From: a virus | Taxonomy: Duplodnaviria > Caudoviricetes | Length of the DNA stretch: 51,379 bases | Direction: 5' to 3' (one strand) | IMG/VR virus record: IMGVR_UViG_3300020460_000021 | Coordinates: 1-51,379 of that record | Shown: positions 6,311 to 43,730 of the stretch, in pieces | Layout of the letters: each line of letters starts with the position of its first letter | Position numbering within the stretch: the stretch's first letter is position 1 | Program-made: the position numbers and the translations under genes | Notes under the pieces: generated by a model | Database searches by the model: none | What the model was told of the DNA's origin: nothing | What the model saw: the letters and a program-made list of their open reading frames with translations, nothing else

Positions 6311-6558
6311 TACCCCCCACCATTTACCCCCCACTTTTTTAACAACAAAACTCAAAAGACCCCAATAAAACTCTTAAGTCCCCTCTGAAAATATATTTAA
6401 TTAAAATTATCGAATATGGTGTTTTTAGATTTTAAGTCCACAGTGTCTACCAATTCCACCACCCGGGCATCGCATCTTTTGTCGTCAATCTTTTTATCAA
6501 AAAACTAAATAATTAAAAAATGTTAAAATACCTTTACCCCCCACTTTTTACCCCCCAC
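6311..6558. mobile_element. attP region with four integrase arm-type repeats
   Basis: TACCCCCCAC at 6311, 6325, 6535 and 6549 (two pairs, 14-nt period) flanking a tRNA fragment, just downstream of int. Confidence 0.85.
6428..6468 (-). other. attP core: 5' half of tRNA-Leu(TAA)
   Basis: - strand reads GCCCGGGTGGTGGAATTGGTAGACACTGTGGACTTAAAATC: acceptor 5' strand, D-arm and anticodon loop; then diverges, no T-arm. Confidence 0.9.
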
Positions 6559-6562
6559 CTAG

Positions 6563-7729
6563 TCAAATTTTGGGGAAAAAACCTGATTTTTTAACACTTG
6601 GAAAATCTGTTTCTAATTGGGATATATGAAATTTAGTATAACCATCAGTTGTATTAGTATTAGTATGACCTAATAATCTTGATACTAAATGAATATCTCC
6701 AGTTTCAAAATATTTTCGCACTGCAAATGTATCTCTTAAATTATGAAAACGCAAATTACTTTCATCACCTAAAACTTTTTTTACTGCTTGTTTAAATCCT
6801 TTTGATATTTTACTACGATCATTAAACTTAACGATATGATATTTTTTATCTTTTGCTTTCTTTTGAAAATCAATTAAAAAATCTTTTTGTTCTTGATTTA
6901 TAATGAACTCTCTGAATGTTTGTTTTCTTTTTGTTTCTTCCATTGGTATTTTCATCAAATAGTTTTTATTTAATGGAATAATATTAGCATAAAAAGGTTC
7001 TTTTAATCTACATCCAGTTTCAACATAAAATTTTATAACTTGTTTTAAATAGTTTGCATCATCACGAGTTTTTTTAAAACCTACAAATTCATTAAAATCA
7101 CATTGCAATATTTTTTCTAATACTGGTTCTGAAAAATACATTGGTTCTTTATCAGGTTTAGGTGGTAGTTTTATATTTGGTTTATTATTAAGATTTAAAT
7201 TCCAATCTTTAACTTTTTCAGTATAAATAAAATCAACTAAATATTTAAAATATCTAATACTATTATATGTAAAGTATTCAGAATTTTTTTTATTTACATA
7301 TTTTCTAAATCGTAAAACATCTTTATGTGAAATACTTTCAAAATTTTTGTTTTTACCTAAGCAATCTAAAAGTCTGCCTAAAATAATTGTATAACCTCGA
7401 ATAGTTTCTTTAGATGCATTTTCTGTTGTTTTATAATCCATATAATAATCAATTGCATTTTTTAAAGTAATTGTTCTTACTTTACTCACTTTATCTTCAT
7501 TGATCCATTCAAAATATGTTTTATCTATAACACCATTTAATAAATTTTTTCTTTGTTGATGTACTTTTAATGCTCTTTTTTCTGCTTGATTATGTTGTTG
7601 AATAGTTGATAAAGACATATCAACTTTTAATGGAATCATTATTTCTTTATAAGAATTATTATTTTTAGTGCGAAGCCTATAATAATACATATTCCATTTA
7701 AAATTCCAATGTTGTATTCTGCTTGGCAT
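6563..7729 (-). CDS. int: Tyrosine integrase
   Basis: TGCRLKE (R), FHNLRDTFA (HxxR), LGH...TTDGY (H, Y); SAM-like central domain. Confidence 0.95.
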   Translation of the reverse strand: MPSRIQHWNFKWNMYYYRLRTKNNNSYKEIMIPLKVDMSLSTIQQHNQAEKRALKVHQQRKNLLNGVIDKTYFEWINEDKVSKVRTITLKNAIDYYMDYKTTENASKETIRGYTIILGRLLDCLGKNKNFESISHKDVLRFRKYVNKKNSEYFTYNSIRYFKYLVDFIYTEKVKDWNLNLNNKPNIKLPPKPDKEPMYFSEPVLEKILQCDFNEFVGFKKTRDDANYLKQVIKFYVETGCRLKEPFYANIIPLNKNYLMKIPMEETKRKQTFREFIINQEQKDFLIDFQKKAKDKKYHIVKFNDRSKISKGFKQAVKKVLGDESNLRFHNLRDTFAVRKYFETGDIHLVSRLLGHTNTNTTDGYTKFHISQLETDFPSVKKSGFFPKI

Positions 7730-7748: not shown

Positions 7749-10700
7749 TTATTTTAAATTTTTTAAATTTTTTTGTTGTTGTATTCTTAATGGACTTATA
7801 TAATCAATATCACGCTTATCTATAAACAATTTATCTCCTGTAGCAGTCTCATAACCTCTTTTAGCTAAACCACCAACTCCTTGAAAAACACTTAAGTTAG
7901 AATAGGGATTTTTTTTAGAACCTTTAATATTCTCAGAATCATCTAAAGCTTTTAATGCTTTTCCTAATTCACTCATAATAACAATAGAAACGTCAGAACC
8001 ACCAACTCCAGTTCCAAGCCTAATCATATTATGCATTTTTTTAATTGTTTCTTCTTCGTCTTCTTCTTCATCATAATAATTTTTAAATGCTTGTGATACA
8101 AACCATGATAGAGTTGCAATAGATGTTACAATAGTAGAATATAAAGGAGATACTAATCCTTGACTTGATTTTGACATATTACTTCGACCTAACATCCATT
8201 TAATACTTCTGAAAATAGGGTTTGTTAAAAAATTACCCCAAATTGCTAAAGGAAAAAATGTACTAGCAACAGCATGAATACTAAAAAATTGCTGTTGTGC
8301 AAATCTAGAAGGATTTATATATCCCTCAACTCTTTCATTTTTAATTTGTTGTTTAGTTGGCATAAATGTTTTTTTAAAACCATAAGCAGTCATACCTACT
8401 GTACCTAATATTGCCCAAAATGGTGCACCTGCAAAAGTTGTAGTTAATGTTCCTAAACCCCATAACATAGGATTTGTTTTATTTGTCATTATATTACTAT
8501 ACATAGTTGCAAGAGTATTTTTTAAAAATCGAATTTTTTTACTTTTCTTATCTACTAAAATTTCATCATATCTAAATCTAGAATTTATACCTTGTATAGT
8601 AATTTTTAAATCTGACGCAAACTTTTGTTGCCACCAGTTTTTTAATGCATTTAAAAATCTTCCTGTAACATTTCCAAAACCTTGTCCCGCCGCCATTGGT
8701 TCTAAAGAAAATTGTACTAGATTTACATATCTTCTACCTAAAAGCGATTTTTGTTCATCAGTATATGCGTCAGACATTTTACCTGCTTTTTGATATCCAA
8801 TAATATATGATATTACTCTTAAAATTTGTTCTGTATCTTGAATAGATGGTACAATTTTATATTGATCTAATAAAGCCATAACTCTACTATCTGTTTTTTC
8901 TGTTTGTGCTCTATGAGTAATTGCATAATTAGATGCTCTAGTTAATATTCTTGATAAACCATTTGGAAATGTTTTTTTAATTCCTTTTAATGTCATTTTA
9001 AGTATTTTAATTCTTCTCTTAACTTCTTTTTTTTCTAATTTTTTCTTTCTTAAACTTTTTAATTGAATTTGTAATTCTTTAATTTGTGCTTTCATTTCTT
9101 TTGTAACTTTTTTATTAGAATGTATTTCATAAGCTCTTAATTCTTCACTTATATAACCTTCAATAAATTTAACATAAGATGTAATTCCTGCTTTTTCTGC
9201 TAATTTATTCCAATACTCAGGTTTTCTACTATATTCAAACATTGCATCTTTTGCAATATCTAATCCACTTGCAGTTATATCTTGTATATGAGAACTTAAA
9301 TTTACTAATCCATCAGAAGGGTGAATTAACAAATTAGAATAATACCCTTTATTTATATTACCCAAAAATCGTCTAAGTTTTTCTGGGGTTAAATTGTAAA
9401 AAGGAATTGTTTTATTAAAAACATCAGCTACTATTTTATCTGTAAAACGAAGTCCAAGAAAAGTAGCTTCAGCATCAATAGAATTATATTTAGTTCTAAA
9501 TAAATTTAAAGCGTATTGTTTTGCTTGAGGTACTTCTTTTGGATTTTCAATAAATAATTTTAAAAGAGAAAGAGCAACTTTATTACGATACAATGTTTCT
9601 GCAGTTGTATTCATATAATCTCGTATTACAAAATTATCTAAACGTGACTCTTCTATAGGTATAAAATGTCTTATTGATTTAAAATTCTTTAAATAATTTA
9701 ATCCATATATAGGGTCAGCTTGACCATGATGTATCCCATCATCATCAAAATCATCTATAATTTTTTTAATTGCATCTAATGATTCTGTTTTTTCGTCTAT
9801 TTCTAATTGCAACATTCTTCGTTTTGGTTGATTTTTTAAATCAACTGCATCAAGCCGAGTTATTAACGCATCAATTTGATCGGGTAAAGTAACTAAAGCT
9901 TCACTCAAATGTTTTTTTCTTATAGCAGAATCATATATAGTAGGAAAATATTTAATATCACCCATTTGGTCTACTGTTTCTTTTAATCTTACCGTATCAA
10001 TACCCTTTTTATCTACATAAAATTCATCTACATCTTGAAATTCAGGACTATTATTAGTATAAAGTTTAAATATTTCAGAAATTTGATTTTGTATTGCAGG
10101 GTCTAAATTTTGAGTTTGTTCTATTAAACGTTTATGTTCTTTAGATAATTGTTCTGACATTTTTATAACTGCTCTACCAAATGATTCTAAATTTTGTGCA
10201 ATATTAGATTTAATTTCTAAAAATTTTTCAAAATCTAATGTATTCATTACCAAAGGTGTAGCTACACCACCACTTTTTAATTCGTTTGATCTAATTTTTT
10301 TTATTTTTCCATCTTTACCTTTTACTTCTATTCTTTTCAAATCTTCTGGATGAACAATATTTTTTTTATACATTAATATAGGAGCTGTACTTGCATATGC
10401 AAATTTTGAAGTTCCATCTGCATAAGTGCCAACTTTTTTCTTACCTCTTTTTATAAAAAATTCTCCAGTTTTTACACTTATTTTAATACGATTTTGTAAA
10501 TACATATAAATAATTTGAGTAAGCGTATCTTCGTCTTCAAAATATTTGTTAAATGTATTTAAAAATTCTTCTGGAATTAATCTATTTATAACGTCGTTAA
10601 TACCTATATCATTAATATTATTTATTATTGGCGTTTTAGAACCAGTTGTAAAATTTTTTATTTTACGTTCTTTTTTTTGATTTGGTATACCTTCTGTTGA

Positions 10701-11402
10701 ATGTTTGGTTTCTAATTTATTTGCATCAGAACTAGCATAAGTTATTGTTTCAAAAAATTCTTGAAAATTTTCATTTCCAATTCTAGAAGCTACTTTTTGT
10801 GCAGTCATATATTGATATCTAACATTACCAATAAAACCTTCTCCTATACCTAAGTCAAAACCTTCTTCTGCTTTTTTAAGCATATTTTCTAATTCTAAAC
10901 CAAGTAATTTTAAAGATTCTCCCCTAAGTGCAAACAAATTAACTCTATCTTCTCCTGCTGAATTTTTTTCAATATAATTTTGATTTCCTTCTAATATTAA
11001 AAATTCTCTATTTTTTAATATTATGTCTCTTGCTATAATATGAAACCATGGTTTTAATACAGGATTTGCTTCTAAAGTTGATATAATACGAATTAAAAGT
11101 TGTGATTTTTCTATATTATTTTTTTCTGAAATTCCTTGTTTTTTTATTTCTTTTAAAATCTCTTGTTCTGTAATTACATCCGTATTTCTATTTGAACTTA
11201 ATACTGAATTCCAAATTTTACTTATTTTAAATATAATTTTATTATCATTTGTGTTATTTGATATCGAAGACAAATCTTGATTCTTTGGGTCTTTCATTAT
11301 TTTAATATTAACATCCGAATTAACATCGTGTTCACGATTTGCATCTGAAGCTAAAATATCTATTACATTTTCTTTTGATTCTTTACATGCATTTCTACTC
11401 AT
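7749..11402 (-). CDS. Large internal virion/ejection protein with C-terminal hydrophobic helices
   Basis: ~1217 aa; TAATG coupling to the upstream giant gene; hydrophobic segments such as LWGLGTLTTTFAGAPFWAILGTVG. Confidence 0.7.
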   Translation of the reverse strand: MSRNACKESKENVIDILASDANREHDVNSDVNIKIMKDPKNQDLSSISNNTNDNKIIFKISKIWNSVLSSNRNTDVITEQEILKEIKKQGISEKNNIEKSQLLIRIISTLEANPVLKPWFHIIARDIILKNREFLILEGNQNYIEKNSAGEDRVNLFALRGESLKLLGLELENMLKKAEEGFDLGIGEGFIGNVRYQYMTAQKVASRIGNENFQEFFETITYASSDANKLETKHSTEGIPNQKKERKIKNFTTGSKTPIINNINDIGINDVINRLIPEEFLNTFNKYFEDEDTLTQIIYMYLQNRIKISVKTGEFFIKRGKKKVGTYADGTSKFAYASTAPILMYKKNIVHPEDLKRIEVKGKDGKIKKIRSNELKSGGVATPLVMNTLDFEKFLEIKSNIAQNLESFGRAVIKMSEQLSKEHKRLIEQTQNLDPAIQNQISEIFKLYTNNSPEFQDVDEFYVDKKGIDTVRLKETVDQMGDIKYFPTIYDSAIRKKHLSEALVTLPDQIDALITRLDAVDLKNQPKRRMLQLEIDEKTESLDAIKKIIDDFDDDGIHHGQADPIYGLNYLKNFKSIRHFIPIEESRLDNFVIRDYMNTTAETLYRNKVALSLLKLFIENPKEVPQAKQYALNLFRTKYNSIDAEATFLGLRFTDKIVADVFNKTIPFYNLTPEKLRRFLGNINKGYYSNLLIHPSDGLVNLSSHIQDITASGLDIAKDAMFEYSRKPEYWNKLAEKAGITSYVKFIEGYISEELRAYEIHSNKKVTKEMKAQIKELQIQLKSLRKKKLEKKEVKRRIKILKMTLKGIKKTFPNGLSRILTRASNYAITHRAQTEKTDSRVMALLDQYKIVPSIQDTEQILRVISYIIGYQKAGKMSDAYTDEQKSLLGRRYVNLVQFSLEPMAAGQGFGNVTGRFLNALKNWWQQKFASDLKITIQGINSRFRYDEILVDKKSKKIRFLKNTLATMYSNIMTNKTNPMLWGLGTLTTTFAGAPFWAILGTVGMTAYGFKKTFMPTKQQIKNERVEGYINPSRFAQQQFFSIHAVASTFFPLAIWGNFLTNPIFRSIKWMLGRSNMSKSSQGLVSPLYSTIVTSIATLSWFVSQAFKNYYDEEEDEEETIKKMHNMIRLGTGVGGSDVSIVIMSELGKALKALDDSENIKGSKKNPYSNLSVFQGVGGLAKRGYETATGDKLFIDKRDIDYISPLRIQQQKNLKNLK

Positions 11403-14400
11403 TATACAATACAACCTTTATCTTTAATTGCTTGCATTAGCCTTTTTTCAGCTTTAATTGCAATTTTTGCAAATTTATTTTTTGGTTCAAAAATTTTTGC
11501 TAATTCTTTTCCTTCTGCGTTTATAATTTTTAAAAACAAATCATTCCAAGAAGTATAATATAAACGCAATACAGAAGGATCTAAAATTGCATCTACATTT
11601 TCTCTTGAAGGAGGTATAATATTTATAGCATCTTTTGTTTTTCCATATTGTTCGTTAACACTATCGCTTAGATATTTGTAAGTCATATACATTCTTTGTG
11701 ATTTAGATAAATCAGCAGTTTGTTCAATAAACTCTTGATATATCTTATTTAATTCAGGGTCTGTATTCCACATTTGTTGATTAATATTTGACTCTGATTT
11801 TTTTCTAAATTTTGAATTTCTTGTTGAAGTCCATCGTTCTAATCGACTAGATAATTGTTGTGCTAAAATACCTGCATTTCTTAAATAATTTTCAATTTCT
11901 CCTGCTCGAATATCTTTAGTTGTTTTATTTTCATCTTGTAAATATTGGTCTACAATGTTTTGTAATATTTTATCTGCTACATTGTTTATACCTTCTCTGT
12001 GAATAAACCTTTGTTGTTCAAATCCAAGATTAAAAGCAGTTTGTGTAATTCCTTCTTTTGATAACAAATTATCATAAGTAACTGCTATGTTTTCATATAA
12101 ATTTTGAACTCCTTTTTTTCCTTTTAAAGAAAAAATTCTAGGGCTTTTTGTTCCTTTTGTTTCTACAGGAACTCCTTCCTCATTTTTTTCAACTAATCTA
12201 TTTTCTATATGTTCTTGAACTCTTGCACTATACTCAAAATAATCATCAAAAGTTAAATTGCTTCTTGTTTCAACATCTCTACCTTTTTGCAAACTAGAAA
12301 TATCATTCATTGGTTTTATTAATAAATATTTTAATAAAGCAAATTGGTCGGAACTTAACTCTATAGAAGTATCACCAGGCCCAACAAAATAATAACTCAT
12401 TAATTTTTTTAATCCTTTTTCTTCCCATTGCCAATCATTTAATAAACCTAATTTTATATGGTCTACAGAGGCTTGTAAATATTTACTTCCCATTAATTCT
12501 AATTTTATATTTTCTCGCATTTCTTCGTTATAAACAACTTCATTTAAATCACGCAATCTTAAATTAACAAAAGTATCTTCTTTTAATTGTTGACCATCAA
12601 GAATTGTTTTTTCAGGAGCATATGCCTCAATAGATTCAAACCAAGTATTTAACATACCTATATGTTTTAAGAAATTTGCAATTCCACCTAATGCTTTTTT
12701 ACCTACTTTTATATTATCATAGATTTGAAGAAATTGATCTATATTACCAATATTTAACGTAGGTAAATTTTCTTCTAACCCTAAGCCTAAATCTTTTACA
12801 TCGCCAAAATCATCTTGTTCTTTTTTAAATAATCTTGATAATTTTTTTATTTTATTATCTAATAAAACAATAGAAGCAGTATCGCCATCACCATCTCCTT
12901 CAAAAACAGACTTTACAACATCATGTGATACAATAAAAGTATCTCCTATATCTTCTACTGCTACAACTCTCATAATACGAGTATTTGTTTTTCTTCCAAC
13001 TGGACTTCTAATACCCATTACATATACTTCATTTCTTTTTAACCAATCATTTAATTGTTTTTTAGTAGCATATTTTACATTAATCATTTTTTTAATATTT
13101 TCAATAAACTGATGGTCATATGGCATTACAACTTCATCATCGGTTAATGGTTTACCTTCATTATTTGGATTTCCAATAGTATCCATTCTAAAATGCAAAT
13201 ACGTACCATAGGTTTCAAAAGCTCCTATTCTATCAAATATTTCATTTTTAATTAATAGTTTTGCATTTGCTAATTGAGAAGGATGAAACCCTGCACCAAG
13301 TTCAGCGTTCGCTCTCATTTCACTTTCATACCCACCTATAAACATTGCAAAATGTTCTAAAATAAATTTATCTAGTTCCTTAGGATTGTTTACAAGTTTT
13401 TTCAAACGTTGTATTTGATTATAAGCTGATTGAGTTCTTGATTTATCTTGGTCGTTAAATAAATCGTTTAATGCTTTTATAATTTTTGGATCAGTAATAA
13501 AATTACTTCGTTGTGGAGAAAACTTTCCTTTTGTTTTTGTTTTATCATAAGGATTATGAATTAAACCAACACTACTTCCTGGCAATTCAAGGATTTGATT
13601 TGTTTTGTTGTATTCGCCTGTTTGTATTTTTGTTTCATCTGGAGTATTTAACATATCAAAATAATTACCCTCAGCATCATAAAGATTTACATAACCATTT
13701 AAATCTCTTTTATAAGTTGCAATAATAGTTTTTGTTCCATCTTTATTAACTTCTACAAATTGACCTTCTTTATCACTATCTAATAAAATAGGACTCATTT
13801 CTTCATGTTTGATTGCAATAACACCTTTTTCGTCTTTATGATACCATGCTGTTTTTGCTCTATTAGCTCTAGTTTGAGTAGCTAAATATTTAGGATAATC
13901 TAATTTAAATACTTTGTCTGATGTTAAACTCATTCCATCTAATACATATTGTTCTTTACCATCTATTGTTTTTATTAAATCTATTTTTCTTGTTTGATTT
14001 GCTTTATTAATAATATGTAATTGCACTTTAGAATCATTTGTGGTAACAGGATTAAACACCATTACTTTTCTGGTTGGCATTGAACTATTTGTAGTGCTTG
14101 GAGTAAATGGTATTTTTAAACGTTGAAATATTTTATTAGAATCTAGTTCATAATAATTTTCACCAAATATTTTTTTATATGTTTCATGCCTTACTATATT
14201 AAATAATAATAATCTTCTAAATGCTGAAGGCAAATTTTGTTGATTTATTCCTGTTAAATTTTGAATTTCTTTTAGACCTTCTTTTGTTGTGTAATAATCT
14301 CTTTTATCATTTAGTAAATAACTATTTAAAGTATTTGCACCTTTACTACCTTCAGCTTCATTATAAATAGCTTCATCTTCCCAATAAGTTTTAGTTGAAT

Positions 14401-17400
14401 TGCTATTTACTATTTCTTGCAATCTTTTACCTTCAACAGAATTTAAATTAAATAAAACTTGCATTTGAGAATCACCAAGATTTGCAATAGGAATTAAATT
14501 ATTTTGAAAAAAAGATTTATATACTCCATTTTTATAATCACTTAAATCTAAAGAATAACTATCCGTATAAAATATAGGTTCTCCAAATTGATTTCGTCTG
14601 TCTTTGTCTTTAACTAAATGAAAAATATCAGCATCACTTAAATAAACCAGTTCATCTGATTTAAATATACCTAATTTTTCTACTAAACGTTTTTTTTCAA
14701 ATGCGGGTAATACTTTATATTTAAATATTTTTAATTTATTATCTTTTTCATTTTTATCTTTTAGAATAATTTGATATTCTTTGAATTTTTTATAAACTAT
14801 TATATTTGCAACATTTTCTTTATGTTCTGGTGAATGTATAATTTTTTTATTCTCTGGTTTATTAGACAACCAATATCTTAATGCAACAGTTTTTGAAAAT
14901 TTATTTTTAGTTATAATATCTTCAATTGTTCCTGTGCGATTTATTCTAAAATTATTTTCTTGTATAAATTTTTTAGATGAAATAGTAGAAACAAAATCTT
15001 CAAAAGATTTACTATTTTCAACAGTATCTTTTAATCTTAAAGCAAGAACGTTCGATTGTATAATTCCAAATTCATTTAAAAAAGCATTTTGTATATGAAC
15101 AGGGTTGTCTCCAATACCTGCTTCTAAAGCTTCTAAATTTTCACTATAACCAATACCTTCTTTTATGTATTCTACAAAAGAAGATGTTGCAAGTTCTAAT
15201 TCATCATGTGCTGATACACCAAATATATTATTTGTTAATTCATCAATTTTATCTTTATTGTCTTCAATAACAGAATAATTTTTATCTGCTTTATAATTAT
15301 ATGTACTACTCCATTCATCAAATGATTTTTTAAGGTCTGGGTTTATTAAATCTTTACTAAAATGTTCTGCAAATGCAGGAAAATAATCTCTTGAAATCAT
15401 TGTACTATTTACCAAATGCATCCACGCATTTTCAAATATTCTATTTGTTTTTTCAATATCACGCCTACCCCTATTTATACCAAGATTTAATCTATACAAT
15501 TCATTAGGTTGTGTAGTATAGTCTACATTAAAATCATTAGCTAACATGCTAACTGCATTGGATATTATATTTTGTGATATAGATTGTTGATCATATAAAA
15601 TTAATTTATTTTCATAATAATCAGTTATTTTATCTACATAATTATTCATAGTTCCAAACATTTGATATAACATACTTTTTCTAAATTTATTATCAAATTT
15701 TTGATCTTCAATCATTGACTGAAATTTGTTAGTTTTGTCAAACAATTTTCCAATTTTTAAAAATAAATTATAAAAGAAATCTTTAATTTGTTGAAATAAA
15801 CTAACTTCACTATCTGGCAATATTTGTTTTGAAAAATAAGCTTGTACTGTAGTATCTGTAAAAAAATAAGTAAAAAATTCTATTGGTGTATCATCTTCTA
15901 AAGCATTAGAAAGTCTTCTATGTAAAATTGTATCTTTTTTCTTTAAATTATTTTTTGTTTTATTCCAAAATTCTTTTGTTTTTTTATACAATTTAATTAC
16001 ATCTTTGTATTCTTTTGTATTTTGTATTTCAGGATTTTGTAAACTTGCACTTGTAATATAATGAATATATTCGTGAACAAGAGTTTCTTGTAAATTGTGT
16101 ATACTATCTGCAAAACTTTGTTGATTATCAAATAAACTTCCTAAAAAAATTTCTATTTTGTTTTCAAAATTAAAATATACTCCTGAAGATTCGCCTTGTT
16201 CTTCTATTCCTTTTTTATTAGAAATTTGTAATGTTACTTCACCTCCCCCATCTTCTATTTTTAATTTACTAAGAGTATTTCCTATATTTGCTAACATAGG
16301 AAATAATTCTTTTCTTAAAAAATAACTTTTTCTTCCTTTAAAAGTAGAATCTTTTGGAATAACATTTATATTTAACATGTTTTGTATAAAACCCACTATT
16401 TCTTTGTGGTTTTGATACATAGTTGAATACTTTGTATCAACATTTTTTTTACCAAAATCATTATATATTTTTTGTAAATTTTTTAATATTTTTTTACTAT
16501 TTGCAGTTAATTGTCCATTATTATCAAATTGAAATTTTGAATTATTAAAGTCATTAATAAATTTATTAAATAGTTTTTGTTGAGGCTCATCACTAACAAC
16601 TTTAGGTTCGACATCATCTTTAGTTTTAACAGGTTCAACATCATCTATAGTTTTAGGAGGTTTTCCTCGAACACCAGTTACTCCTTCCATTAATTTAGAT
16701 GTTTTATCTTTTTTAGATATTTTATCTTCTTTTTTAGGAGGAGCAACTTCTTTTTTAGGAGGAGGTTTTTTTGTAGAAACTTCTTTTTTAGAAGGTGTAT
16801 GTTCACTTTCTAAACCTAATGCTACATCCATAGCATGGTTAATTTCATCTCTTGTTATAGGTTTTTCTTTTTTTTCTTTTACTTTCTTTTTTCTTTTATC
16901 TTTTGCTTGTTGTATATCAATTGCTCTAGATGTTTGTAAAATTTCATCCATGTTTTGAACAGTCTTCTTAACCCAAGGTTGCCGTTTTCCAGTAGCTTTA
17001 TTTATTGTATTTGCCTTAGCTATTGAGGATTCAAATATTTCAAATCTTTCTTTTTTATTAGTATCTGCAGGATTTAATTCTAATGTTTGGGGACTCCATT
17101 TTGTTATATATACTGTTTCAAGTTGATTTGTTTTAGGATTTATTTTTTTCCCTTTTTCTAATACTTGTAAATTAAAAACTGTTCCTTTTTCGTTTAATAA
17201 TCCTAATTTTTTTTGTGCTACCCCTGTCATATTTAATTTTGAAATTATAGAAGGGTCATTTTTACCATCTAATTTTTGTATAGTTTCTTCATTAACAGGA
17301 TTTTGTAATTGTTGTCTTACATTTTGTCGTTTATCTTTATTTTTTGCATTATTTTTTCGTTGAGTTTCTAAATCTTTTTTTCTGTTGTCTTTTGATACAT

Positions 17401-19699
17401 CATAATGTTCTTTAAGCTCTTCATTTACTTCGTTTATTTGATTATCAAAATCCAAATCTGCAGAATCATAATTAGCATCAATAGTATCTACGTCTTTTAT
17501 ATCATCTGAATAAGTGTTTGTTTCATCTGTTTGGTCATCAAGACCTATATCCATATTATATTCTTTTATTATTCTTTTAGCATCTTTTTCTCCAAAAAGT
17601 TGTGTTAATTGATTATAACCCTGCAAATAATTACCAAGTTTGCTATTCATTATATCGGTTATGCTTATTTGCATTTTATCCATAACATTTTTCATTTCTT
17701 TTGTTTTTAAAATGCTAGTTAATTTTTCTGATCCATCTATTCCTTTAAAAAAACCAATTTCTGCGTCTTTTTTTTGTCTTTCTACAACACGCATTTCTAA
17801 TTCTTTTGTATCATAATTTTCTAATATAGACTTATCTACATTTTCGTATGGGTCTTTACCCATAAATAAATTCAATCGAACCATTGTGTCTAATTCATCT
17901 ACAGTAAGACCTTTTTCAAAATTATCATCTGTTAAAAACTTATAATGTTTGTCAGCTTTTTCAGCTATAATATTATCTATTATAGATTCATTTATATCTT
18001 TATATCCTAATGCTTTTAAAGTACCTCTAGCACCTACATCTAATGCAGTTGTACCAACTCTCATAACTCCACCTGTTACAAAACCTGCTCTAAAGGCTTC
18101 ATCAATTCTATTATTAAATGCATCATCTAATGTTTTTAAATGTTCGGGCATATAATTGTTTACCATACTCATGTTCAATGATTCTTGAACACCTTCTGTA
18201 ATACCCTCTTGTATTGCGTTTATACTCCAAGTGCTTAAAGCAACAGCACCTTTTTTTAATCCTTTTTGTTTTTGAATTCTTTGCATCATTAATTTAAACC
18301 AATGATGAGCTGTTGCTTTTTGCCCAACTTTACCTGCATTTGATTTTGTAAATAACTTAAGAATACCTTTCATTGAGTTTGCGGCAACTCCACCACCTAC
18401 AGCTTCTGCACCTGAAGAAACAGCTTCTATTAAAGCTGACATTGTTCCGTATTGTAAACCTACATTATACGCTATTTCACCAATTTGATCGTCTGTAATC
18501 TTGTCTGCAGTTGTTTGTTTTTCTGTTTTAAAACCAGAATAAACAGTGTATTTGTTTTTAAACTCTTCTTCAGTCATTTTAGACTGACCATTATTTATCA
18601 TTTCACGTTGTTGTTTAGCTTGATTTCTTAAATCAGAAAATAAATTAACTAATTCTTCAGTAGTAGAACCACCTTCTGCTAAAAAACCACCACCAGACGA
18701 AATACCTGTTCCTGCTACTATAAGAGGAACACCTACAGGTGCACCTACACCACCAGTACCTAATGTTAATGCACCACCTATAGTGTTAAAAGTACCACCT
18801 ACAATAGATGTTGGAGTTGAAAGAAGTGTTTTCATTACTTGATTCATAAAAAATTTAGGATCTCTTAAAAAAGTAGCTGGACTTAGTATTGCATCACCAA
18901 ATTCAGCTTTATATTGTTCTGGAGTTAAACCATATACACCAGACAAATTAGTTTCTACACCTTCTTCATTAATTGTTTCACTGATTTTTTGAAAAAAATC
19001 TGAATAATCAATATCTGCTGTTTCAGATAAAGGTATCTTCCCGTATTTACCTAGAGGAATAAAAGGATTTGTAAGATAATTTTCAAATGTTTGCCCTGTT
19101 ACATCAAATCCAGTACCTATGCTTTGCATAAACTGGTCGAATCCTTGTGCCCACAATCCATCGCTTGAATTTTGTTCATGACGATCTATTTCTTTTTGCA
19201 TGGATTCTCTAGTAGCATTAAAGTAACCCTTTTCATGTGTTAAAAGTTTTGTATATTCTTGATTTATTTCTTTTTTATGTTCATTTGATATGTCTTTAGG
19301 CAATCCTTGTGCTATAAATTGTTCTTGTTCTAATAAATGTTCAGCAGTAGAATTAATAATTTGATTTTTATGTATAGAAGTAATGTTTTCTGAACCAGAC
19401 AAATAATTAAATATATCAGCTATTTGTGTTCTATAAAGATTAAATCTTTTATCTTCATGACTATTATCTCCAATAGTAAAATTTTTTCTATATTCTCTGT
19501 CTTTATAATCAAAACCTTCATACCCTAATTTTTTTAATTTGTTATCTAAATGATTATACAGAGGACTATCAGGATATTCTTGCGTTTGAGGATTTATTAA
19601 AAAACTATTAGATAGTTGAACTTCATTATTAGGATATGTAAAAATATCTCTATTCCACAATTCATCATATTGCTCAGGATTTAATATTTTTTGTGACAT
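11402..19699 (-). CDS. Putative virion-packaged two-barrel RNA polymerase polyprotein with zincin domain
   Basis: GIRSP (13001) and FEGDGDGD (12881-12895); LDGMSLTS...K...K upstream barrel; HEYIH (16061-16075); located in the virion module. Confidence 0.75.
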   Translation of the reverse strand: MSQKILNPEQYDELWNRDIFTYPNNEVQLSNSFLINPQTQEYPDSPLYNHLDNKLKKLGYEGFDYKDREYRKNFTIGDNSHEDKRFNLYRTQIADIFNYLSGSENITSIHKNQIINSTAEHLLEQEQFIAQGLPKDISNEHKKEINQEYTKLLTHEKGYFNATRESMQKEIDRHEQNSSDGLWAQGFDQFMQSIGTGFDVTGQTFENYLTNPFIPLGKYGKIPLSETADIDYSDFFQKISETINEEGVETNLSGVYGLTPEQYKAEFGDAILSPATFLRDPKFFMNQVMKTLLSTPTSIVGGTFNTIGGALTLGTGGVGAPVGVPLIVAGTGISSGGGFLAEGGSTTEELVNLFSDLRNQAKQQREMINNGQSKMTEEEFKNKYTVYSGFKTEKQTTADKITDDQIGEIAYNVGLQYGTMSALIEAVSSGAEAVGGGVAANSMKGILKLFTKSNAGKVGQKATAHHWFKLMMQRIQKQKGLKKGAVALSTWSINAIQEGITEGVQESLNMSMVNNYMPEHLKTLDDAFNNRIDEAFRAGFVTGGVMRVGTTALDVGARGTLKALGYKDINESIIDNIIAEKADKHYKFLTDDNFEKGLTVDELDTMVRLNLFMGKDPYENVDKSILENYDTKELEMRVVERQKKDAEIGFFKGIDGSEKLTSILKTKEMKNVMDKMQISITDIMNSKLGNYLQGYNQLTQLFGEKDAKRIIKEYNMDIGLDDQTDETNTYSDDIKDVDTIDANYDSADLDFDNQINEVNEELKEHYDVSKDNRKKDLETQRKNNAKNKDKRQNVRQQLQNPVNEETIQKLDGKNDPSIISKLNMTGVAQKKLGLLNEKGTVFNLQVLEKGKKINPKTNQLETVYITKWSPQTLELNPADTNKKERFEIFESSIAKANTINKATGKRQPWVKKTVQNMDEILQTSRAIDIQQAKDKRKKKVKEKKEKPITRDEINHAMDVALGLESEHTPSKKEVSTKKPPPKKEVAPPKKEDKISKKDKTSKLMEGVTGVRGKPPKTIDDVEPVKTKDDVEPKVVSDEPQQKLFNKFINDFNNSKFQFDNNGQLTANSKKILKNLQKIYNDFGKKNVDTKYSTMYQNHKEIVGFIQNMLNINVIPKDSTFKGRKSYFLRKELFPMLANIGNTLSKLKIEDGGGEVTLQISNKKGIEEQGESSGVYFNFENKIEIFLGSLFDNQQSFADSIHNLQETLVHEYIHYITSASLQNPEIQNTKEYKDVIKLYKKTKEFWNKTKNNLKKKDTILHRRLSNALEDDTPIEFFTYFFTDTTVQAYFSKQILPDSEVSLFQQIKDFFYNLFLKIGKLFDKTNKFQSMIEDQKFDNKFRKSMLYQMFGTMNNYVDKITDYYENKLILYDQQSISQNIISNAVSMLANDFNVDYTTQPNELYRLNLGINRGRRDIEKTNRIFENAWMHLVNSTMISRDYFPAFAEHFSKDLINPDLKKSFDEWSSTYNYKADKNYSVIEDNKDKIDELTNNIFGVSAHDELELATSSFVEYIKEGIGYSENLEALEAGIGDNPVHIQNAFLNEFGIIQSNVLALRLKDTVENSKSFEDFVSTISSKKFIQENNFRINRTGTIEDIITKNKFSKTVALRYWLSNKPENKKIIHSPEHKENVANIIVYKKFKEYQIILKDKNEKDNKLKIFKYKVLPAFEKKRLVEKLGIFKSDELVYLSDADIFHLVKDKDRRNQFGEPIFYTDSYSLDLSDYKNGVYKSFFQNNLIPIANLGDSQMQVLFNLNSVEGKRLQEIVNSNSTKTYWEDEAIYNEAEGSKGANTLNSYLLNDKRDYYTTKEGLKEIQNLTGINQQNLPSAFRRLLLFNIVRHETYKKIFGENYYELDSNKIFQRLKIPFTPSTTNSSMPTRKVMVFNPVTTNDSKVQLHIINKANQTRKIDLIKTIDGKEQYVLDGMSLTSDKVFKLDYPKYLATQTRANRAKTAWYHKDEKGVIAIKHEEMSPILLDSDKEGQFVEVNKDGTKTIIATYKRDLNGYVNLYDAEGNYFDMLNTPDETKIQTGEYNKTNQILELPGSSVGLIHNPYDKTKTKGKFSPQRSNFITDPKIIKALNDLFNDQDKSRTQSAYNQIQRLKKLVNNPKELDKFILEHFAMFIGGYESEMRANAELGAGFHPSQLANAKLLIKNEIFDRIGAFETYGTYLHFRMDTIGNPNNEGKPLTDDEVVMPYDHQFIENIKKMINVKYATKKQLNDWLKRNEVYVMGIRSPVGRKTNTRIMRVVAVEDIGDTFIVSHDVVKSVFEGDGDGDTASIVLLDNKIKKLSRLFKKEQDDFGDVKDLGLGLEENLPTLNIGNIDQFLQIYDNIKVGKKALGGIANFLKHIGMLNTWFESIEAYAPEKTILDGQQLKEDTFVNLRLRDLNEVVYNEEMRENIKLELMGSKYLQASVDHIKLGLLNDWQWEEKGLKKLMSYYFVGPGDTSIELSSDQFALLKYLLIKPMNDISSLQKGRDVETRSNLTFDDYFEYSARVQEHIENRLVEKNEEGVPVETKGTKSPRIFSLKGKKGVQNLYENIAVTYDNLLSKEGITQTAFNLGFEQQRFIHREGINNVADKILQNIVDQYLQDENKTTKDIRAGEIENYLRNAGILAQQLSSRLERWTSTRNSKFRKKSESNINQQMWNTDPELNKIYQEFIEQTADLSKSQRMYMTYKYLSDSVNEQYGKTKDAINIIPPSRENVDAILDPSVLRLYYTSWNDLFLKIINAEGKELAKIFEPKNKFAKIAIKAEKRLMQAIKDKGCIV

Positions 19700-19702
19700 A
19701 TA

Positions 19703-21340
19703 TTATTTTTGTGTAGTAGTATCAACAGGAGCTTGTGTGCTATCTAAAGTAGTAGTAAATACATCAGAAGTAAAATTATATTGAGTGTTTAGATTATTTA
19801 TAGTTTCATTTGTTTGGTCAATTTCATTATTCATATTTAATATTTCACTAGCTTGTGAAACTTGTTGTACATAATAATCACTTATTTTCATTAAATAATC
19901 TGTCATTTCAAAATAAGTTACCGTTTTATCTCTCGTTCCTTGAGAATCTTTATCTTCATCTGCTCTAGAATGAGCTTCAAACATAGCTTTACCAAATCCT
20001 TTTTGTTTAGTTAGTAAATCAGACTCATAATTTGGATTATCTTTTTTAGTTTCTTTTGGTTCAGTAATATCCGTAATTATTTTTTTAACAAACTCAGGGT
20101 TTAATATTTGTCTACCATTAAAATTAATATATCTTGCATTTACAACTTGTTCATCAGCCCATGTCATTCCTTCTGTGTAACCATCTTCAGAACCAGTCAT
20201 TTTTATATAGTCTGTTTTATTTATTTTATCGTCTGCTGTTTGATAGTCTTCCCAATGAATTGATTCTTTTTTTATAGAAGGAATAATATTTACTACTACA
20301 TTACTTTTAGATTTACCAACATCTATTAAACCTAATATGTGGTCACTTACATTTTTTAATTGTCTTTCAACAGCACCTGGGGTTGTTAATTCTCCAACAT
20401 CAAATGATACTAAATTTTTAAAAGTTGGTGAAGATCCATCCATTTTTAATGCATCTTTTGCTTTACTATTAAAAAGTTTTAGTTCTGCACTCATAGACTT
20501 TGAAAAATCGTCTATAATATCTGTTTTTTGATTAGCGAAAGATGCAAGGTCTGGTACTCCTTTATACGTATCTTTTTTTGTAGGTTGACGTTTTGCTATC
20601 TCACCCAAAGTAGTTGCTAATTGTTGATCAAATTCTTTTTGATCACCTTTAAAAACAGATGCTGATACATTACTTAAAGTTATTCCCAATTCTTCATCAT
20701 CTATTTTTTTATCTCTGTTATACAATAAAAATGTTGGGTCATCTTCAAGATAATTTCTTAAACCTTCTCTATCGTTATTTACTATGTATGATGATATTTT
20801 TCCTCTTAAATCTTTAAAAGATTTGCTTAAATTTTCTGTTTGATACGCTGTTTTTAAATTTTTCGTAGCTTCTATAGTAGCATTTATATTTTTTGTTATA
20901 TCTTCTCTTAACTCAGTATTTGGAAGAGTTGATGCAATAGTTATTAATTCAGCTAATTCTGTTTCATTACCACCCGCTTTTTTTATTTGTTGTACATAAT
21001 TATTTTTTAATGTATTACTTGCTTTTTCTATATTAATGTTTTTTTTCTTTAAATCTGCAGTATTTTGAAGTCCATTCATTATTGCTTCTACTACAGGGCT
21101 ATCTACTTGATTAGCAATAGATTTAGCACCAGATGTAATTTTATCAACTTCTTTAGGGTCACTTAAAGTTGTTATTTGTTTTTGTAATTCCCCTAACACA
21201 TTTGTAGCTTGAGTAACCCTTCTATCTTCTCTTTGAAATGCTTGTGCTAATATATTGGAAGACATTCTTTCTTCTCTTTGTTGTTCTCTTATATTGCTTG
21301 CCCCTATATTTGCTAACATTCTATCTAGTGCATTTGCCAT
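19703..21340 (-). CDS. Putative internal virion/ejection protein
   Basis: 545-aa helical protein directly upstream of the giant gene. Confidence 0.6.
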   Translation of the reverse strand: MANALDRMLANIGASNIREQQREERMSSNILAQAFQREDRRVTQATNVLGELQKQITTLSDPKEVDKITSGAKSIANQVDSPVVEAIMNGLQNTADLKKKNINIEKASNTLKNNYVQQIKKAGGNETELAELITIASTLPNTELREDITKNINATIEATKNLKTAYQTENLSKSFKDLRGKISSYIVNNDREGLRNYLEDDPTFLLYNRDKKIDDEELGITLSNVSASVFKGDQKEFDQQLATTLGEIAKRQPTKKDTYKGVPDLASFANQKTDIIDDFSKSMSAELKLFNSKAKDALKMDGSSPTFKNLVSFDVGELTTPGAVERQLKNVSDHILGLIDVGKSKSNVVVNIIPSIKKESIHWEDYQTADDKINKTDYIKMTGSEDGYTEGMTWADEQVVNARYINFNGRQILNPEFVKKIITDITEPKETKKDNPNYESDLLTKQKGFGKAMFEAHSRADEDKDSQGTRDKTVTYFEMTDYLMKISDYYVQQVSQASEILNMNNEIDQTNETINNLNTQYNFTSDVFTTTLDSTQAPVDTTTQK

Positions 21341-43461: not shown

Positions 43462-43730
43462 ATCTAAAGTTAAACATCCTAATTATTTTTACGTTCAAAA
43501 AAACCCGTTGTTGACTTTTACATCTGTGGGGGTTACCTTCGGTTGGACACAACCACAACAAGACCGTCCCTTTTTTTTCTACTCCCCTCTACAACTCCTT
43601 TTATAGATCCCAAAGTTTCAAAATTGTAGCATTTTGATATACGGCCTGTATTAGTACGGGTGCCCCTATGACAGAGAAATGCAAAGAGCATTTTAGTTAT
43701 TTATTAATCCAACATAAGGAGACTTTCAAT

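What the first reader, a model, noticed from the sequence alone, without database searches (positions are those of the whole stretch)
11402..19699. crAss-like virion RNA polymerase in a 51-kb integrating phage
Seen: the C-terminal third has VYVMGIRSP...FIVSHDVVKSVFEGDGDGDTASIV, preceded by LDGMSLTS...KT...IKH...ETK. Known: RxP plus DxDxD mark the catalytic double-psi beta-barrel, and DG plus conserved lysines mark the second barrel of two-barrel polymerases. Crassvirales (e.g. phi14:2 gp66) package such single-chain enzymes but are about twice this size and encode their own DNA polymerase. Inference: a compact temperate lineage that injects its own RNAP. This raises the question of how early genes are fired on prophage induction, when no virion enzyme is present.
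Basis: partly seen in the sequence, partly recalled or inferred. Interest (0 to 1): 0.85.

Follow-up and report, generated by a model that had tools for sequence, protein, structure and literature searches.

The report
Two-barrel RNA polymerase in small phage
A complete 51-kb marine phage genome that carries an integrase encodes a giant, probably virion-borne protein ending in a single-chain RNA polymerase whose fold is closest to the crAss-phage virion enzyme and to eukaryotic RNAi polymerases, in a phage lineage that is not itself crAss-like.

Summary
ORF 11402-19699(-) encodes 2765 aa with the quoted motifs. Sequence libraries gave no hit, but the fold is clear. An AlphaFold model of residues 1600-2765 (pLDDT 75) matches phi14:2 gp66 best by Foldseek (E 8e-10), then QDE-1. 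The DGDGD barrel superposes on cellular beta' barrels at 2.5-2.8 A. The first barrel, folded alone (pLDDT 88.5), finds gp66 as the only chain with Z>=8 among 48,161 (Z 10.9). R2231, P2233 and D2269/2271/2273 are invariant, and K1964, E2022 and K2024 nearly so, across relatives of 20-33% identity.

The phage is not a Crassvirales member: its capsid, portal and terminase belong to other families. It belongs to an uncultured marine lineage. All 38 related loci carry a giant ORF ending in this polymerase, and all ten near-complete records (50-81 kb) share its capsid and terminase.

Integration is well supported. There is a tyrosine integrase beside an attP whose 42-nt core equals the 5' half of a tRNA-Leu(TAA) gene. 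Only 4 of 37 relatives carry an integrase.

Virion packaging and early transcription are inferred, not shown.

The parts
11402..19699 (-). Giant ORF, 2765 aa (P0001): an N-terminal region of about 1650 aa plus a C-terminal two-barrel RNA polymerase module
   Evidence: All 38 related loci have an open frame of 1412-4450 aa ending in the same module; some frames are cut by locus ends.
18665..18829 (-). Gly-rich, uncharged hydrophobic segment (residues 291-345), a possible membrane-active part of an ejected protein
   Evidence: A similar 50-aa window with at most one charged residue occurs at residues 233-305 in P0005, P0011, P0012 and P0014.
16061..16075 (-). HExxH (HEYIH, residues 1209-1213), a zincin-like metallopeptidase signature
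   Evidence: H, E and H are the only invariant columns in 20 aligned segments. The motif lies more than 300 aa upstream of the DxDxD in 22 of 38 related giant ORFs. hhalign places it on the HExxH region of phi14:2 gp65, but only at 34.7% probability.
11543..14749 (-). RNA polymerase module (about residues 1651-2719)
   Evidence: Model pLDDT 75.4, pTM 0.73. Foldseek: 6vr4_A E 8e-10, QDE-1 6e-7. VIA: QDE-1 Z 17.1 (660 aligned, rmsd 6.2), gp66 Z 12.2 (789 aligned, rmsd 4.9).
13556..14071 (-). First barrel (beta-like DPBB, residues 1877-2048) with D1921, G1922, K1949, T1950, K1964, H1965, E2022 and K2024
   Evidence: Domain model pLDDT 88.5. Unbiased VIA search of 48,161 chains: gp66 Z 10.9 (164 aligned, rmsd 2.7) is the only Z>=8. 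Then RDR2 6.8 and QDE-1 6.4, then beta-type RNAP subunits and generic DPBB folds at Z 4-5.
12791..13225 (-). Second barrel (beta'-like DPBB, residues 2159-2303)
   Evidence: Superposes on the AR9 beta' piece (134 aligned, rmsd 2.5, Z 12.9) and on bacterial beta' barrels (127-134 aligned, rmsd 2.7-2.8, Z about 12).
13001..13009 (-). R-S-P (2231-2233); R and P invariant
   Evidence: Lies at the end of strand 627-633 of the model.
12881..12895 (-). D-G-D-G-D (2269-2273), the predicted Mg-binding triad
   Evidence: Invariant in 24 of 24 sequences. Lies in the loop between helix 660-666 and strand 675-681.
7749..11414 (-). 1221-aa conserved partner gene directly downstream, with hydrophobic C-terminal segments visible in the printed sequence
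   Evidence: tblastn match next to the polymerase in 21 of 38 loci. Sequence. No Pfam or PHROG family.
19703..21340 (-). 545-aa gene directly upstream, no family; a possible third cargo or ejection protein
   Evidence: Not found by tblastn in any of the 38 loci.
6563..7729 (-). Tyrosine integrase
   Evidence: PF00589 46.5 bits against a cut-off of 27.1. phrog_1 E 6.8e-23.
6428..6469 (-). attP core: 42 nt identical to the 5' half (base 1 to the anticodon loop) of a tRNA-Leu(TAA) gene
   Evidence: Exact 39-mer found in 8 metagenome contigs. A complete tRNA-Leu(TAA) is present in 3 of them. 100% identity over 41-42 nt.
6311..6334 (+). Two exact copies of TACCCCCCAC on one side of the core (candidate integrase arm sites)
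   Evidence: 4 exact copies plus one with a mismatch in the window, against 0.40 expected; 0 of 100 shuffles reach 5.
6535..6558 (+). Two more exact copies of TACCCCCCAC on the other side of the core
5152..5937 (-). HTH protein beyond attP, a weak candidate for repressor or excisionase
   Evidence: PF07022 (CI repressor HTH) 21.0 bits, just under its cut-off of 22. Weak PHROG HTH hits.
35546..37162 (-). Major capsid protein (phrog_1328)
   Evidence: 43-64% identical (full-length matches 51-64%) in 23 of 37 related records and in 10 of 10 near-complete ones.
38107..40350 (-). Portal (phrog_156)
40335..41798 (-). Large terminase (phrog_38)
   Evidence: 32-81% identical (68-81% in 20 records) in 27 of 37 related records and in 10 of 10 near-complete ones.
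51126..51379 (+). Second copy of a 254-nt terminal direct repeat (first copy 2-255, 98% identical); an assembly overlap of a circular or permuted genome of about 51.1 kb
   Evidence: Metagenome contig L043 runs through the junction with a single copy.

Best explanation
The ORF encodes a multidomain cargo protein. It has a Gly-rich hydrophobic segment, a zincin-like HExxH region, and a C-terminal module of about 1100 aa that is a catalytically intact single-chain two-barrel RNA polymerase.

Shown here:
- The fold has both barrels.
- The metal-binding triad and the barrel residues are conserved.
- The nearest solved structures are crAss gp66 and QDE-1.
- The gene is the second-to-last large gene of the virion/late arm, with a conserved 1221-aa partner downstream.
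- The genome is complete, has no DNA polymerase of its own, and carries an integrase with a tRNA-Leu attP.

Inferred by analogy with phi14:2 gp66, N4 gp50 and P23-45 gp96:
- The protein is packaged in the capsid and ejected with the DNA, together with its neighbours.
- It then transcribes the plus-strand early/replication arm (about 43.2 kb through the junction to 5.15 kb), independently of the host polymerase.
- Host RNA polymerase transcribes the rest.
- In a lysogen no virion enzyme is present, so induction would have to start from host-type promoters. The virion enzyme would then be a device for the infecting particle only.
For: Fold, whole module:
- Model pLDDT 75.4, pTM 0.73.
- Foldseek against PDB: 6vr4_A (gp66) E 8e-10, QDE-1 6e-7, P23-45-type gp64 4e-4, then cellular beta' at about 1e-2.
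- VIA: QDE-1 Z 17.1, RDR2 15.8, gp66 12.2; beta' barrels at rmsd 2.5-2.8 over 127-134 residues.

Fold, first barrel alone:
- Model pLDDT 88.5.
- gp66 Z 10.9 is the only Z>=8 of 48,161 chains. Beta-type subunits and generic DPBB folds follow.

Conservation:
- Invariant K/H, E/K, RxP and DxDxD.
- 85 representatives at E<=1e-3 and 24 at E<=1e-30.

Viral fold library:
- Three unnamed viral proteins come first (E 1e-41 to 1e-31), then two more unnamed viral proteins (about 1e-13), then crAss-phage proteins from 4e-11, phi14:2 itself at 4e-5, and P23-45 at 8e-4.

Context:
- TerL, portal, capsid, tail fibres, endolysin, 545 aa, this ORF, 1221 aa and integrase all lie on one strand.
- The partner gene is found in 21 of 38 loci.
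- The polymerase sits at the C-terminus of a giant frame in 38 of 38 loci.
- HExxH lies upstream in 22 of 38.

Literature (passages read): in crAss phages the polymerase lies beside a zincin-bearing virion protein, and the three proteins are fused in some phages.

Lineage:
- Capsid and terminase are shared by 10 of 10 near-complete relatives.
Against: - No sequence-level link to any characterised polymerase: Pfam, PHROGs, PDB phmmer, a PDB profile search and BLASTP against phi14:2 all gave nothing.
- Foldseek with the isolated first barrel found nothing at E<=1e-3. gp66 was rank 14 with E 0.1.
- Packaging, ejection, template and promoter are untested.
- No repeated motif or promoter signal was found in the early arm: sigma-70-like sites 27 against 24.7 expected, and no k-mer of 12 or more repeated three times.
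- The zincin link to gp65 is weak (hhalign 34.7%).
- The models come from AlphaFold, not from experiment.
Confidence: 0.6

Rival explanations
1. The polymerase is real but not virion-borne. It would be made after infection or induction and would transcribe middle or late genes, as reported for SPbeta YonO and P23-45 gp64.
For: Single-chain two-barrel polymerases that are not packaged exist: P23-45-type gp64 appears among the fold matches, and SPbeta is named in the P23-45 paper passage. A temperate phage cannot rely on a virion enzyme at induction.
Against: Known non-virion forms are small stand-alone proteins (gp64-type chains are about 590 aa). Here the module is always the C-terminus of a giant frame of more than 2200 aa wherever the frame is complete. 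That frame carries a hydrophobic segment and an HExxH region, lies at the end of the structural arm, and has a conserved partner with hydrophobic segments. This is the layout of crAss, N4 and P23-45 virion enzymes.
Confidence: 0.17
2. The module works mainly on single-stranded templates in the manner of QDE-1. It would prime replication of a phage that lacks its own primase and DNA polymerase, or pull the genome into the cell by transcription, rather than serve as a promoter-specific early transcriptase.
For: [quoted passage not shown] No PolA or PolB was found in the window or in 4 complete relatives. No primase family appeared in the PHROG scans of the plus-strand genes.
Against: This does not exclude early transcription; the roles can coexist. 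The Z ranking is affected by chain length: gp66 aligns more residues at lower rmsd (789 at 4.9 A), ranks first by Foldseek, and wins clearly on the isolated barrel. Not every ORF was scanned for a primase.
Confidence: 0.15
3. The barrels are a decayed remnant, and the protein is now only a structural or ejection protein.
For: Polymerase identity among relatives is low (23-29% best tblastn segments, up to 34% in the tree alignment), while terminase is 68-81% identical in 20 records. No biochemical data exist.
Against: The Asp triad, RxP and H1965 are invariant across the 24 aligned sequences, and K1964, E2022 and K2024 are invariant there and at 90% or more in a second alignment, despite that divergence. 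The motif pattern used to cut the tree input was present in all 39 giant ORFs. Fast evolution with a fixed active site is also what the crAss literature describes (passage).
Confidence: 0.03

Closest known systems
phi14:2 gp66, the virion RNA polymerase of a crAss-like phage (PDB 6VR4)
   Same: A single chain with two DPBB barrels. It is the best Foldseek match for the whole module and by far the best match for the first barrel. Both are giant proteins at the end of the virion gene arm with large neighbours. A zincin-type HExxH lies nearby: in gp65 for phi14:2, inside the same ORF here. Both have an endolysin and a metallophosphatase inside the late arm.
   Different: There is no detectable sequence similarity. 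The motif is DGDGD rather than DFDID. The host phage is half the size, has unrelated capsid, portal and terminase families, has no own DNA polymerase and carries an integrase. The polymerase module is C-terminal here, whereas in gp66 the catalytic motif is at residue 1361 of 2180.
QDE-1 and RDR2, eukaryotic RNAi polymerases
   Same: They give the highest whole-module VIA scores (Z 17.1 and 15.8, about 610-660 residues aligned). Both have a single-chain two-barrel layout with Gly at position 4 of the Asp motif (for QDE-1 this follows the statement in the gp66 paper).
   Different: These are eukaryotic cellular enzymes of about 1000-1400 aa, not phage cargo. On the isolated first barrel they score well below gp66 (Z 6.4-6.8 against 10.9).
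P23-45 gp96, a virion RNA polymerase fused to the tape-measure protein
   Same: A two-barrel polymerase fused into a giant virion protein that also carries metallopeptidase and transmembrane parts (passage).
   Different: In gp96 the polymerase is N-terminal, in a siphovirus tape measure of 5002 aa. Only the non-virion gp64-type chains appeared among my fold matches.
N4 gp50 virion RNA polymerase (Schitoviridae)
   Same: The concept is the same: a giant packaged polymerase ejected with two other ejection proteins (abstract in search listing only).
   Different: From recall, gp50 has the T7-like single-subunit fold, not two barrels. No such chain appeared in my fold lists.
SPbeta YonO
   Same: A single-chain two-barrel polymerase in a temperate phage (named in the passage; details recalled).
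   Different: It is small, stand-alone and not reported as packaged (recalled). It was not seen in my searches.

Membership tests
Two-barrel (DPBB) RNA polymerase superfamily | beta'-like double-psi beta-barrel carrying a DxDxD metal-binding loop | tested here: met
   Model residues 560-704 superpose on bacterial and AR9 beta' barrels at rmsd 2.5-2.8 over 127-134 residues. D2269/2271/2273 are invariant in 24 of 24 sequences and sit in a loop.
Two-barrel (DPBB) RNA polymerase superfamily | Second, beta-like double-psi beta-barrel with conserved basic residues | tested here: met
   The domain model (pLDDT 88.5) matches gp66 873-1322 at Z 10.9, then RDR2 and QDE-1, then the phiKZ, vaccinia, bacterial, Pol III and AR9 beta-type subunits, and designed or generic DPBB domains. 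K1949 is invariant in the second alignment; K1964 and K2024 are invariant in the first and at 90% or more in the second.
Two-barrel (DPBB) RNA polymerase superfamily | Bridge helix and trigger loop after the catalytic barrel | tested here: inconclusive
   A 34-residue helix (model 721-754) follows the DGDGD barrel, and whole-module alignments to QDE-1 and gp66 run through it. I could not inspect residue-level equivalences.
Two-barrel (DPBB) RNA polymerase superfamily | Mg-dependent, template-dependent RNA synthesis | not testable with these tools
   Needs biochemistry.
crAss-type virion RNA polymerase (gp66 family) | Detectable sequence homology to gp66 or its orthologues | tested here: not met
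   phmmer and profile searches against PDB chains, which include 6VR4, gave no polymerase hit. BLASTP against phi14:2 g066 gave none. tblastn against 50,697 phage records gave no match.
crAss-type virion RNA polymerase (gp66 family) | DFDxD catalytic motif | tested here: not met
   Here the motif is EGDGDGD. The family pattern used for the scans was E[GA]DxD[GH]D. The crAss motif is taken from the paper passage.
crAss-type virion RNA polymerase (gp66 family) | Closest structural neighbour is gp66 | tested here: met
   gp66 is Foldseek rank 1 for the module and the only Z>=8 for the first barrel. By whole-module VIA, QDE-1 scores higher.
crAss-type virion RNA polymerase (gp66 family) | Protein present in the virion and ejected | not testable with these tools
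   Inferred only, from gene position and architecture.
crAss-type virion RNA polymerase (gp66 family) | Associated zincin-like protease homologous to gp65 | tested here: inconclusive
   HExxH is conserved. hhalign to the gp65 HExxH region gives probability 34.7% over 49 columns. No PDB hit.
Order Crassvirales (the phage itself) | crAss-type capsid, portal and terminase | tested here: not met
   The window has phrog_1328, phrog_156 and phrog_38. phi14:2 has phrog_11589 (capsid) and phrog_6547 (portal). BLASTP found nothing below E 0.01. tblastn of capsid, terminase and portal listed no Crassvirales among the rows shown.
Temperate phage with a tyrosine integrase and a tRNA attachment site | Tyrosine recombinase catalytic domain | tested here: met
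   PF00589 46.5 bits against a cut-off of 27.1.
Temperate phage with a tyrosine integrase and a tRNA attachment site | attP core identical to a host tRNA gene segment, next to the integrase gene | tested here: met
   42 nt are identical to complete tRNA-Leu(TAA) genes in L046, L047 and L050. Four flanking exact decamer repeats.
Temperate phage with a tyrosine integrase and a tRNA attachment site | An integrated copy (attL/attR joining this phage to host DNA) | tested here: inconclusive
   Of the 8 contigs holding the core, 4 are attP forms of relatives, 3 are empty attB, and 1 (L044) is host flank plus tRNA 5' half plus unrelated DNA.
Temperate phage with a tyrosine integrase and a tRNA attachment site | Repressor | tested here: inconclusive
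   For 5152-5937, the CI-type HTH scores 21.0 bits, under its cut-off of 22.

The most novel reading that the evidence does not exclude
A truly temperate phage packages and injects its own two-barrel RNA polymerase. Its early genes would then have two independent ignition routes: the virion enzyme on infection and the host enzyme on induction. The same uncultured marine lineage, unrelated to Crassvirales in its capsid genes, would show that gp66/QDE-1-type polymerases are a mobile cargo module spread across tailed phages. That would widen the pool of candidate ancestors of eukaryotic RNAi polymerases.
Probability: 0.35. Interest if true: 0.8.

Novelty: new variant of a known kind. Interest (0 to 1): 0.66.

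Why it matters
In the papers I read, single-chain two-barrel virion polymerases are described for Crassvirales (about 100 kb, Bacteroidota hosts, regarded as non-lysogenic) and for Thermus phage P23-45. This finding places the same kind of enzyme, with an intact active site, in a separate and apparently widespread marine lineage.

- The lineage comprises 85 sequence clusters at 50% identity and 37 IMG/VR records. Its genomes are mostly 50-60 kb, lack a DNA polymerase, and have non-crAss capsids.
- It therefore provides a second, much smaller natural system for asking how such enzymes are packaged, ejected, activated and targeted. Here the zincin motif is fused to the polymerase.
- The window's clade adds an integrase with a well-defined tRNA-Leu attachment site.
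- It also adds deep, independent sequence diversity for tracing the relationship between phage polymerases and QDE-1/RDR enzymes.

Tried and rejected
Approaches that gave nothing for the ORF:
- Sequence libraries: Pfam at E<=1, PHROGs at E<=0.01, PDB phmmer at E<=10, and tblastn against 50,697 phage records.
- A profile of alignment A1 against PDB gave only low-complexity noise from the N-terminal columns, best E 0.02 to a CRISPR protein.
- A single-protein pattern scan of viral contigs found nothing. The alignment-based scan worked.

Comparisons with cultured phages:
- Roseobacter phage CRP-810 is the only cultured phage with a weak capsid match. It has a 2016-aa protein in the same slot with two HExxH motifs, but no DxDxD and no BLASTP similarity. 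I dropped it as a relative of the polymerase.
- BLASTP of 23 window proteins against 28 phi14:2 proteins found nothing below E 0.01.

Alignment and domain searches:
- Alignment A3 (middle fragment against whole homologues) was misaligned onto the polymerase columns and was discarded.
- The middle region is too divergent for tblastn: 2 of 38 loci.
- Foldseek with the isolated first barrel found no match at E<=1e-3. The exhaustive VIA search did.
- A5 against PDB gave no meaningful hit.

Genome features:
- Rfam at gathering thresholds over the window gave 0 matches. An E-value search of the attP gap gave only a chance hit.
- ARAGORN found no tRNA in the window, which is expected for a half gene.
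- Folding the fragment gave no stable structure (z +1.35).
- Promoter, terminator and repeat scans of the early arm were at background.

Host identity is unresolved:
- Two Atlas look-ups of genes beside the empty attB gave conflicting phylum hints, Bacteroidota and Pseudomonadota.
- The integrase has no tblastn match in phage records, and the DnaB hits are uninformative.

Contigs at the attachment site:
- L050 has an integrase 128 nt upstream of the intact tRNA. The sequence directly upstream of the tRNA is host-type, so it is not the predicted junction.
- L042 is filed under an archaeal MAG. It carries the polymerase and its partner and groups with viral contig L012, so I read it as a binned phage contig, not as evidence for an archaeal host.

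Literature:
- Six full-text searches returned no paper describing a two-barrel virion polymerase in a phage of about 50 kb, a non-crAss phage of this type, or an integrase-bearing phage. This covers only the held library.
- Supplementary files were not opened. Extended Data Table 1 of the gp66 preprint is an image and could not be read. It may list residue equivalences that bear on my motif comparison.

Tree:
- The tree is the quick version. The careful search did not finish.
- All 39 rows were kept, and 38 of them were distinct.

Tools not used: complex prediction, read laying and the look-up of sequencing runs.
Full report
**What is there**

The window is a whole IMG/VR virus record of 51,379 bases, rated 100% complete by CheckV. 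Its last 254 nt repeat its first 254 nt at 98% identity. A related metagenome contig, L043 (94% identical), runs straight through the junction with one copy. The genome is therefore circular or circularly permuted, with a unit of about 51.1 kb.

The ORF at 11402-19699 on the minus strand encodes 2765 aa. It begins 4 nt after the upstream gene and overlaps the downstream gene by 13 nt.

**Sequence searches**

- Pfam, PHROGs, the sequences of all PDB chains and 50,697 phage records gave no match.
- The word-indexed protein search found only a 97% identical copy and one 3661-aa relative with 25% identity.
- An exhaustive phmmer search with residues 1600-2765 against 1.84 billion cluster representatives found 85 proteins at E<=1e-3, 63 at E<=1e-10 and 24 at E<=1e-30.
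- The ten clusters I looked up come from ENA, JGI, Tara and similar metagenome sources. They carry no functional names and sit on contigs of 10-56 kb.
- In an alignment of 24 members (20-33% identical to the query), the invariant columns include K1964, H1965, E2022, K2024, R2231, P2233, D2269, D2271 and D2273.

**Fold**

An AlphaFold2 model of residues 1600-2765, built on that alignment, has mean pLDDT 75.4 and pTM 0.73.

Foldseek against the PDB ranks as follows:
- phi14:2 gp66, the crAss-type virion polymerase (6VR4): E 8e-10.
- QDE-1: 6e-7.
- P23-45-type non-virion polymerases: 4e-4.
- Cellular beta' subunits: about 1e-2.

The VIA re-alignment gives:
- QDE-1: Z 17.1, 660 aligned, rmsd 6.2.
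- Maize RDR2: Z 15.8.
- gp66: Z 12.2, 789 aligned, rmsd 4.9.
- Many bacterial beta' chains and the AR9 beta' piece superpose on model residues 560-704 over 127-134 residues at rmsd 2.5-2.8.

That stretch is the barrel that carries RSP at the end of a strand and DGDGD in the loop before the next strand.

To test the second barrel directly, I folded residues 1839-2079 alone, using a separate alignment of 23 sequences (pLDDT 88.5).
- Foldseek found nothing at E<=1e-3. gp66 was rank 14 with E 0.1.
- The exhaustive VIA search of 48,161 chains gave gp66 residues 873-1322 at Z 10.9 (164 aligned, rmsd 2.7). This was the only chain at Z>=8.
- RDR2 (6.8) and QDE-1 (6.4) followed. At Z 4-5 came the beta-type subunits of the phiKZ, vaccinia, bacterial, Pol III and AR9 polymerases, together with generic and designed DPBB domains.

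Both barrels are therefore present.

In the viral structure library, the best matches are three unnamed viral proteins (E 1e-41 to 1e-31, TM up to 0.70). Two more unnamed viral proteins follow at about 1e-13, then a series of crAss-phage proteins from 4e-11, phi14:2 itself at 4e-5, and P23-45 at 8e-4.

**Architecture of the whole protein**

Upstream of the polymerase module lie an uncharged Gly-rich hydrophobic segment (residues 291-345) and an HExxH motif (HEYIH, 1209-1213).
- HExxH occurs more than 300 aa upstream of the Asp motif in 22 of 38 related giant ORFs.
- It forms the only invariant columns of a 20-sequence alignment of that region.
- The gp66 preprint (passages read) says that gp65, the neighbour of gp66, has a zincin-like protease domain, and that the three large virion proteins are fused into one polyprotein in some crAss phages.
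- A profile comparison places my HExxH region on the gp65 HExxH region, but with only 34.7% probability. I call this link suggestive, not shown.
- The P23-45 paper (passages) describes a virion two-barrel polymerase fused to a protein that also has metallopeptidase and transmembrane parts.

**Context**

On the minus strand the order is: terminase, portal, a 300-aa gene, capsid, tail fibres, endolysin, metallophosphatase, an 876-aa gene, a tail-fibre-like gene, small genes, the 545-aa gene, this ORF, a 1221-aa gene, then the integrase.

The plus strand carries DnaB, RusA, a Cas4-like nuclease and SSB. It runs from about 43.2 kb through the junction to 5.15 kb.

The 1221-aa gene is found beside the polymerase in 21 of 38 loci, and its printed sequence shows hydrophobic C-terminal segments.

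phi14:2 has a comparable order: terminase, portal, one gene, capsid, then endolysin, metallophosphatase, structural genes, g067, g066 and g065. However, no window protein matches a phi14:2 protein by BLASTP below E 0.01. The capsid and portal fall into different PHROGs: 1328 and 156 here, 11589 and 6547 in phi14:2. The phage is therefore not a member of Crassvirales.

**The lineage**

A pattern scan of IMG/VR found 37 related loci, and one more lies in a species-genome contig.
- All 38 have a giant open frame (1412-4450 aa, some cut by locus ends) ending in the polymerase.
- The window's capsid is found in 23 of 37 records (43-64% identity; full-length matches 51-64%).
- The terminase is found in 27 of 37 records (32-81% identity; 68-81% in 20 of them).
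- Both are in all 10 records that are at least 90% complete; these span 50-81 kb.
- The polymerase is only 23-29% identical by best tblastn segment, and up to 34% in the tree alignment. It evolves much faster than the capsid genes, as reported for crAss polymerases (passage).
- No PolA or PolB family was found in the window or in 4 complete relatives.

**Integration**

The 388-aa product of 6563-7729 is a tyrosine recombinase (PF00589, 46.5 bits).

In the 625-nt gap beside it I noticed a tRNA-like stretch. A 39-nt exact search found it in 8 metagenome contigs.
- Three contigs (L046, L047, L050) hold a complete tRNA-Leu(TAA) gene whose first 42 nt equal window 6469-6428.
- Four contigs (L043, L045, L048, L049) are attP forms of related phages.
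- One contig (L044) has the host upstream flank and the tRNA 5' half followed by unrelated DNA. That is an attL-like junction of some other element at exactly this point.

Four exact copies of TACCCCCCAC flank the core in two pairs, against 0.4 matches expected by chance. They look like arm-type sites.

No integrated copy of this phage was found. The host is unknown:
- The host-type contigs have 27-32% G+C.
- Two Atlas look-ups gave conflicting phylum hints.

An integrase is present in only 4 of 37 relatives and in none of the 10 near-complete ones. Where present, it sits in the same slot, about 4.3 kb downstream of the polymerase.

In a quick maximum-likelihood tree of the polymerase, the window groups with L003, L004 and L006 (all integrase-bearing) and L005, with 100% SH-aLRT support. 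A fifth integrase, in L009, lies in another clade. At least two gains or losses are therefore needed.

**Mechanism**

Shown:
- An intact two-barrel polymerase module.
- Its fusion to a long N-terminal region.
- Its position in the late arm with a conserved partner.
- A complete small genome with an integrase and an attP.

Inferred:
- The protein is packaged, ejected with its neighbours and possibly released by the zincin-like part.
- It then transcribes the plus-strand early arm independently of the host enzyme, as shown for gp66 in phi14:2 (passages).
- At induction of a lysogen no virion enzyme exists, so host-type promoters must be able to start the programme.

I could not find either kind of promoter. 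The sigma-70-type scan was at background and no repeated motif emerged.

**Novelty**

Six full-text searches found no description of such an enzyme in a phage of about 50 kb, a non-crAss phage of this kind, or an integrase-bearing phage. One viral protein in the fold library already carries the automatic label 'RNA dependent RNA polymerase', so annotation pipelines have touched related proteins. I rate this as a new variant of a known kind.

Noticed in passing
window 2-255 and 51126-51379: A 254-nt terminal direct repeat at 98% identity. A DUF932-family gene reads in frame across the junction, so the record is a circular or permuted genome cut inside this gene. The two copies differ at a few codons, which suggests population microdiversity in the assembly.
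   Followed up: yes
L044 (metagenome contig), core at 2213-2251: The host upstream flank and the 5' half of tRNA-Leu(TAA) are followed by DNA unrelated to the window. Another mobile element appears to be integrated at the same point of the same tRNA gene.
   Followed up: partly
L050:468-1532: A tyrosine integrase (31% identical to the window's in the catalytic part) lies 128 nt upstream of an intact tRNA-Leu(TAA). The intervening sequence is host-type, so this is a different insertion beside the same tRNA.
   Followed up: partly
L042 (contig of a MAG labelled Candidatus Poseidoniales): A 23.8-kb contig binned with a marine archaeon carries the polymerase and its 1221-aa partner, and groups with viral contig L012 in the tree. 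It is probably a phage contig caught by binning.
   Followed up: partly
window 26929-28427: An endolysin and a calcineurin-type metallophosphatase (phrog_7339, E 2.7e-44) sit side by side inside the late arm. phi14:2 also has an endolysin (g077) and a metallophosphatase (g075, which also hits phrog_7339 at 4e-8) in the same relative place.
   Followed up: partly
window 44494-45426: A stretch of about 930 nt in the early arm has only very short ORFs. No tandem or strong repeats were found. The gp66 preprint mentions highly transcribed long intergenic regions in phi14:2.
   Followed up: partly
window 43526-43535 (minus strand): A fifth, one-mismatch copy of the attP decamer (TAACCCCCAC) lies in the divergent region between the two gene arms.
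   Followed up: no
G005 (record of L007): One relative rated 100% complete is 80.8 kb, whereas the other nine near-complete records are 50-59 kb. It could carry extra genes or be a partial concatemer.
   Followed up: no
L007-L017, L025, L042 and L005 giant ORFs: Sixteen of the 38 relatives lack an HExxH upstream of the polymerase in the giant ORF; these are mostly the sister clades of the window's clade. Whether the motif has moved to a neighbouring gene was not checked.
   Followed up: no
window 46972-47319: A strong match to DUF6915 (E 2.3e-45) among otherwise unassigned early genes.
   Followed up: no
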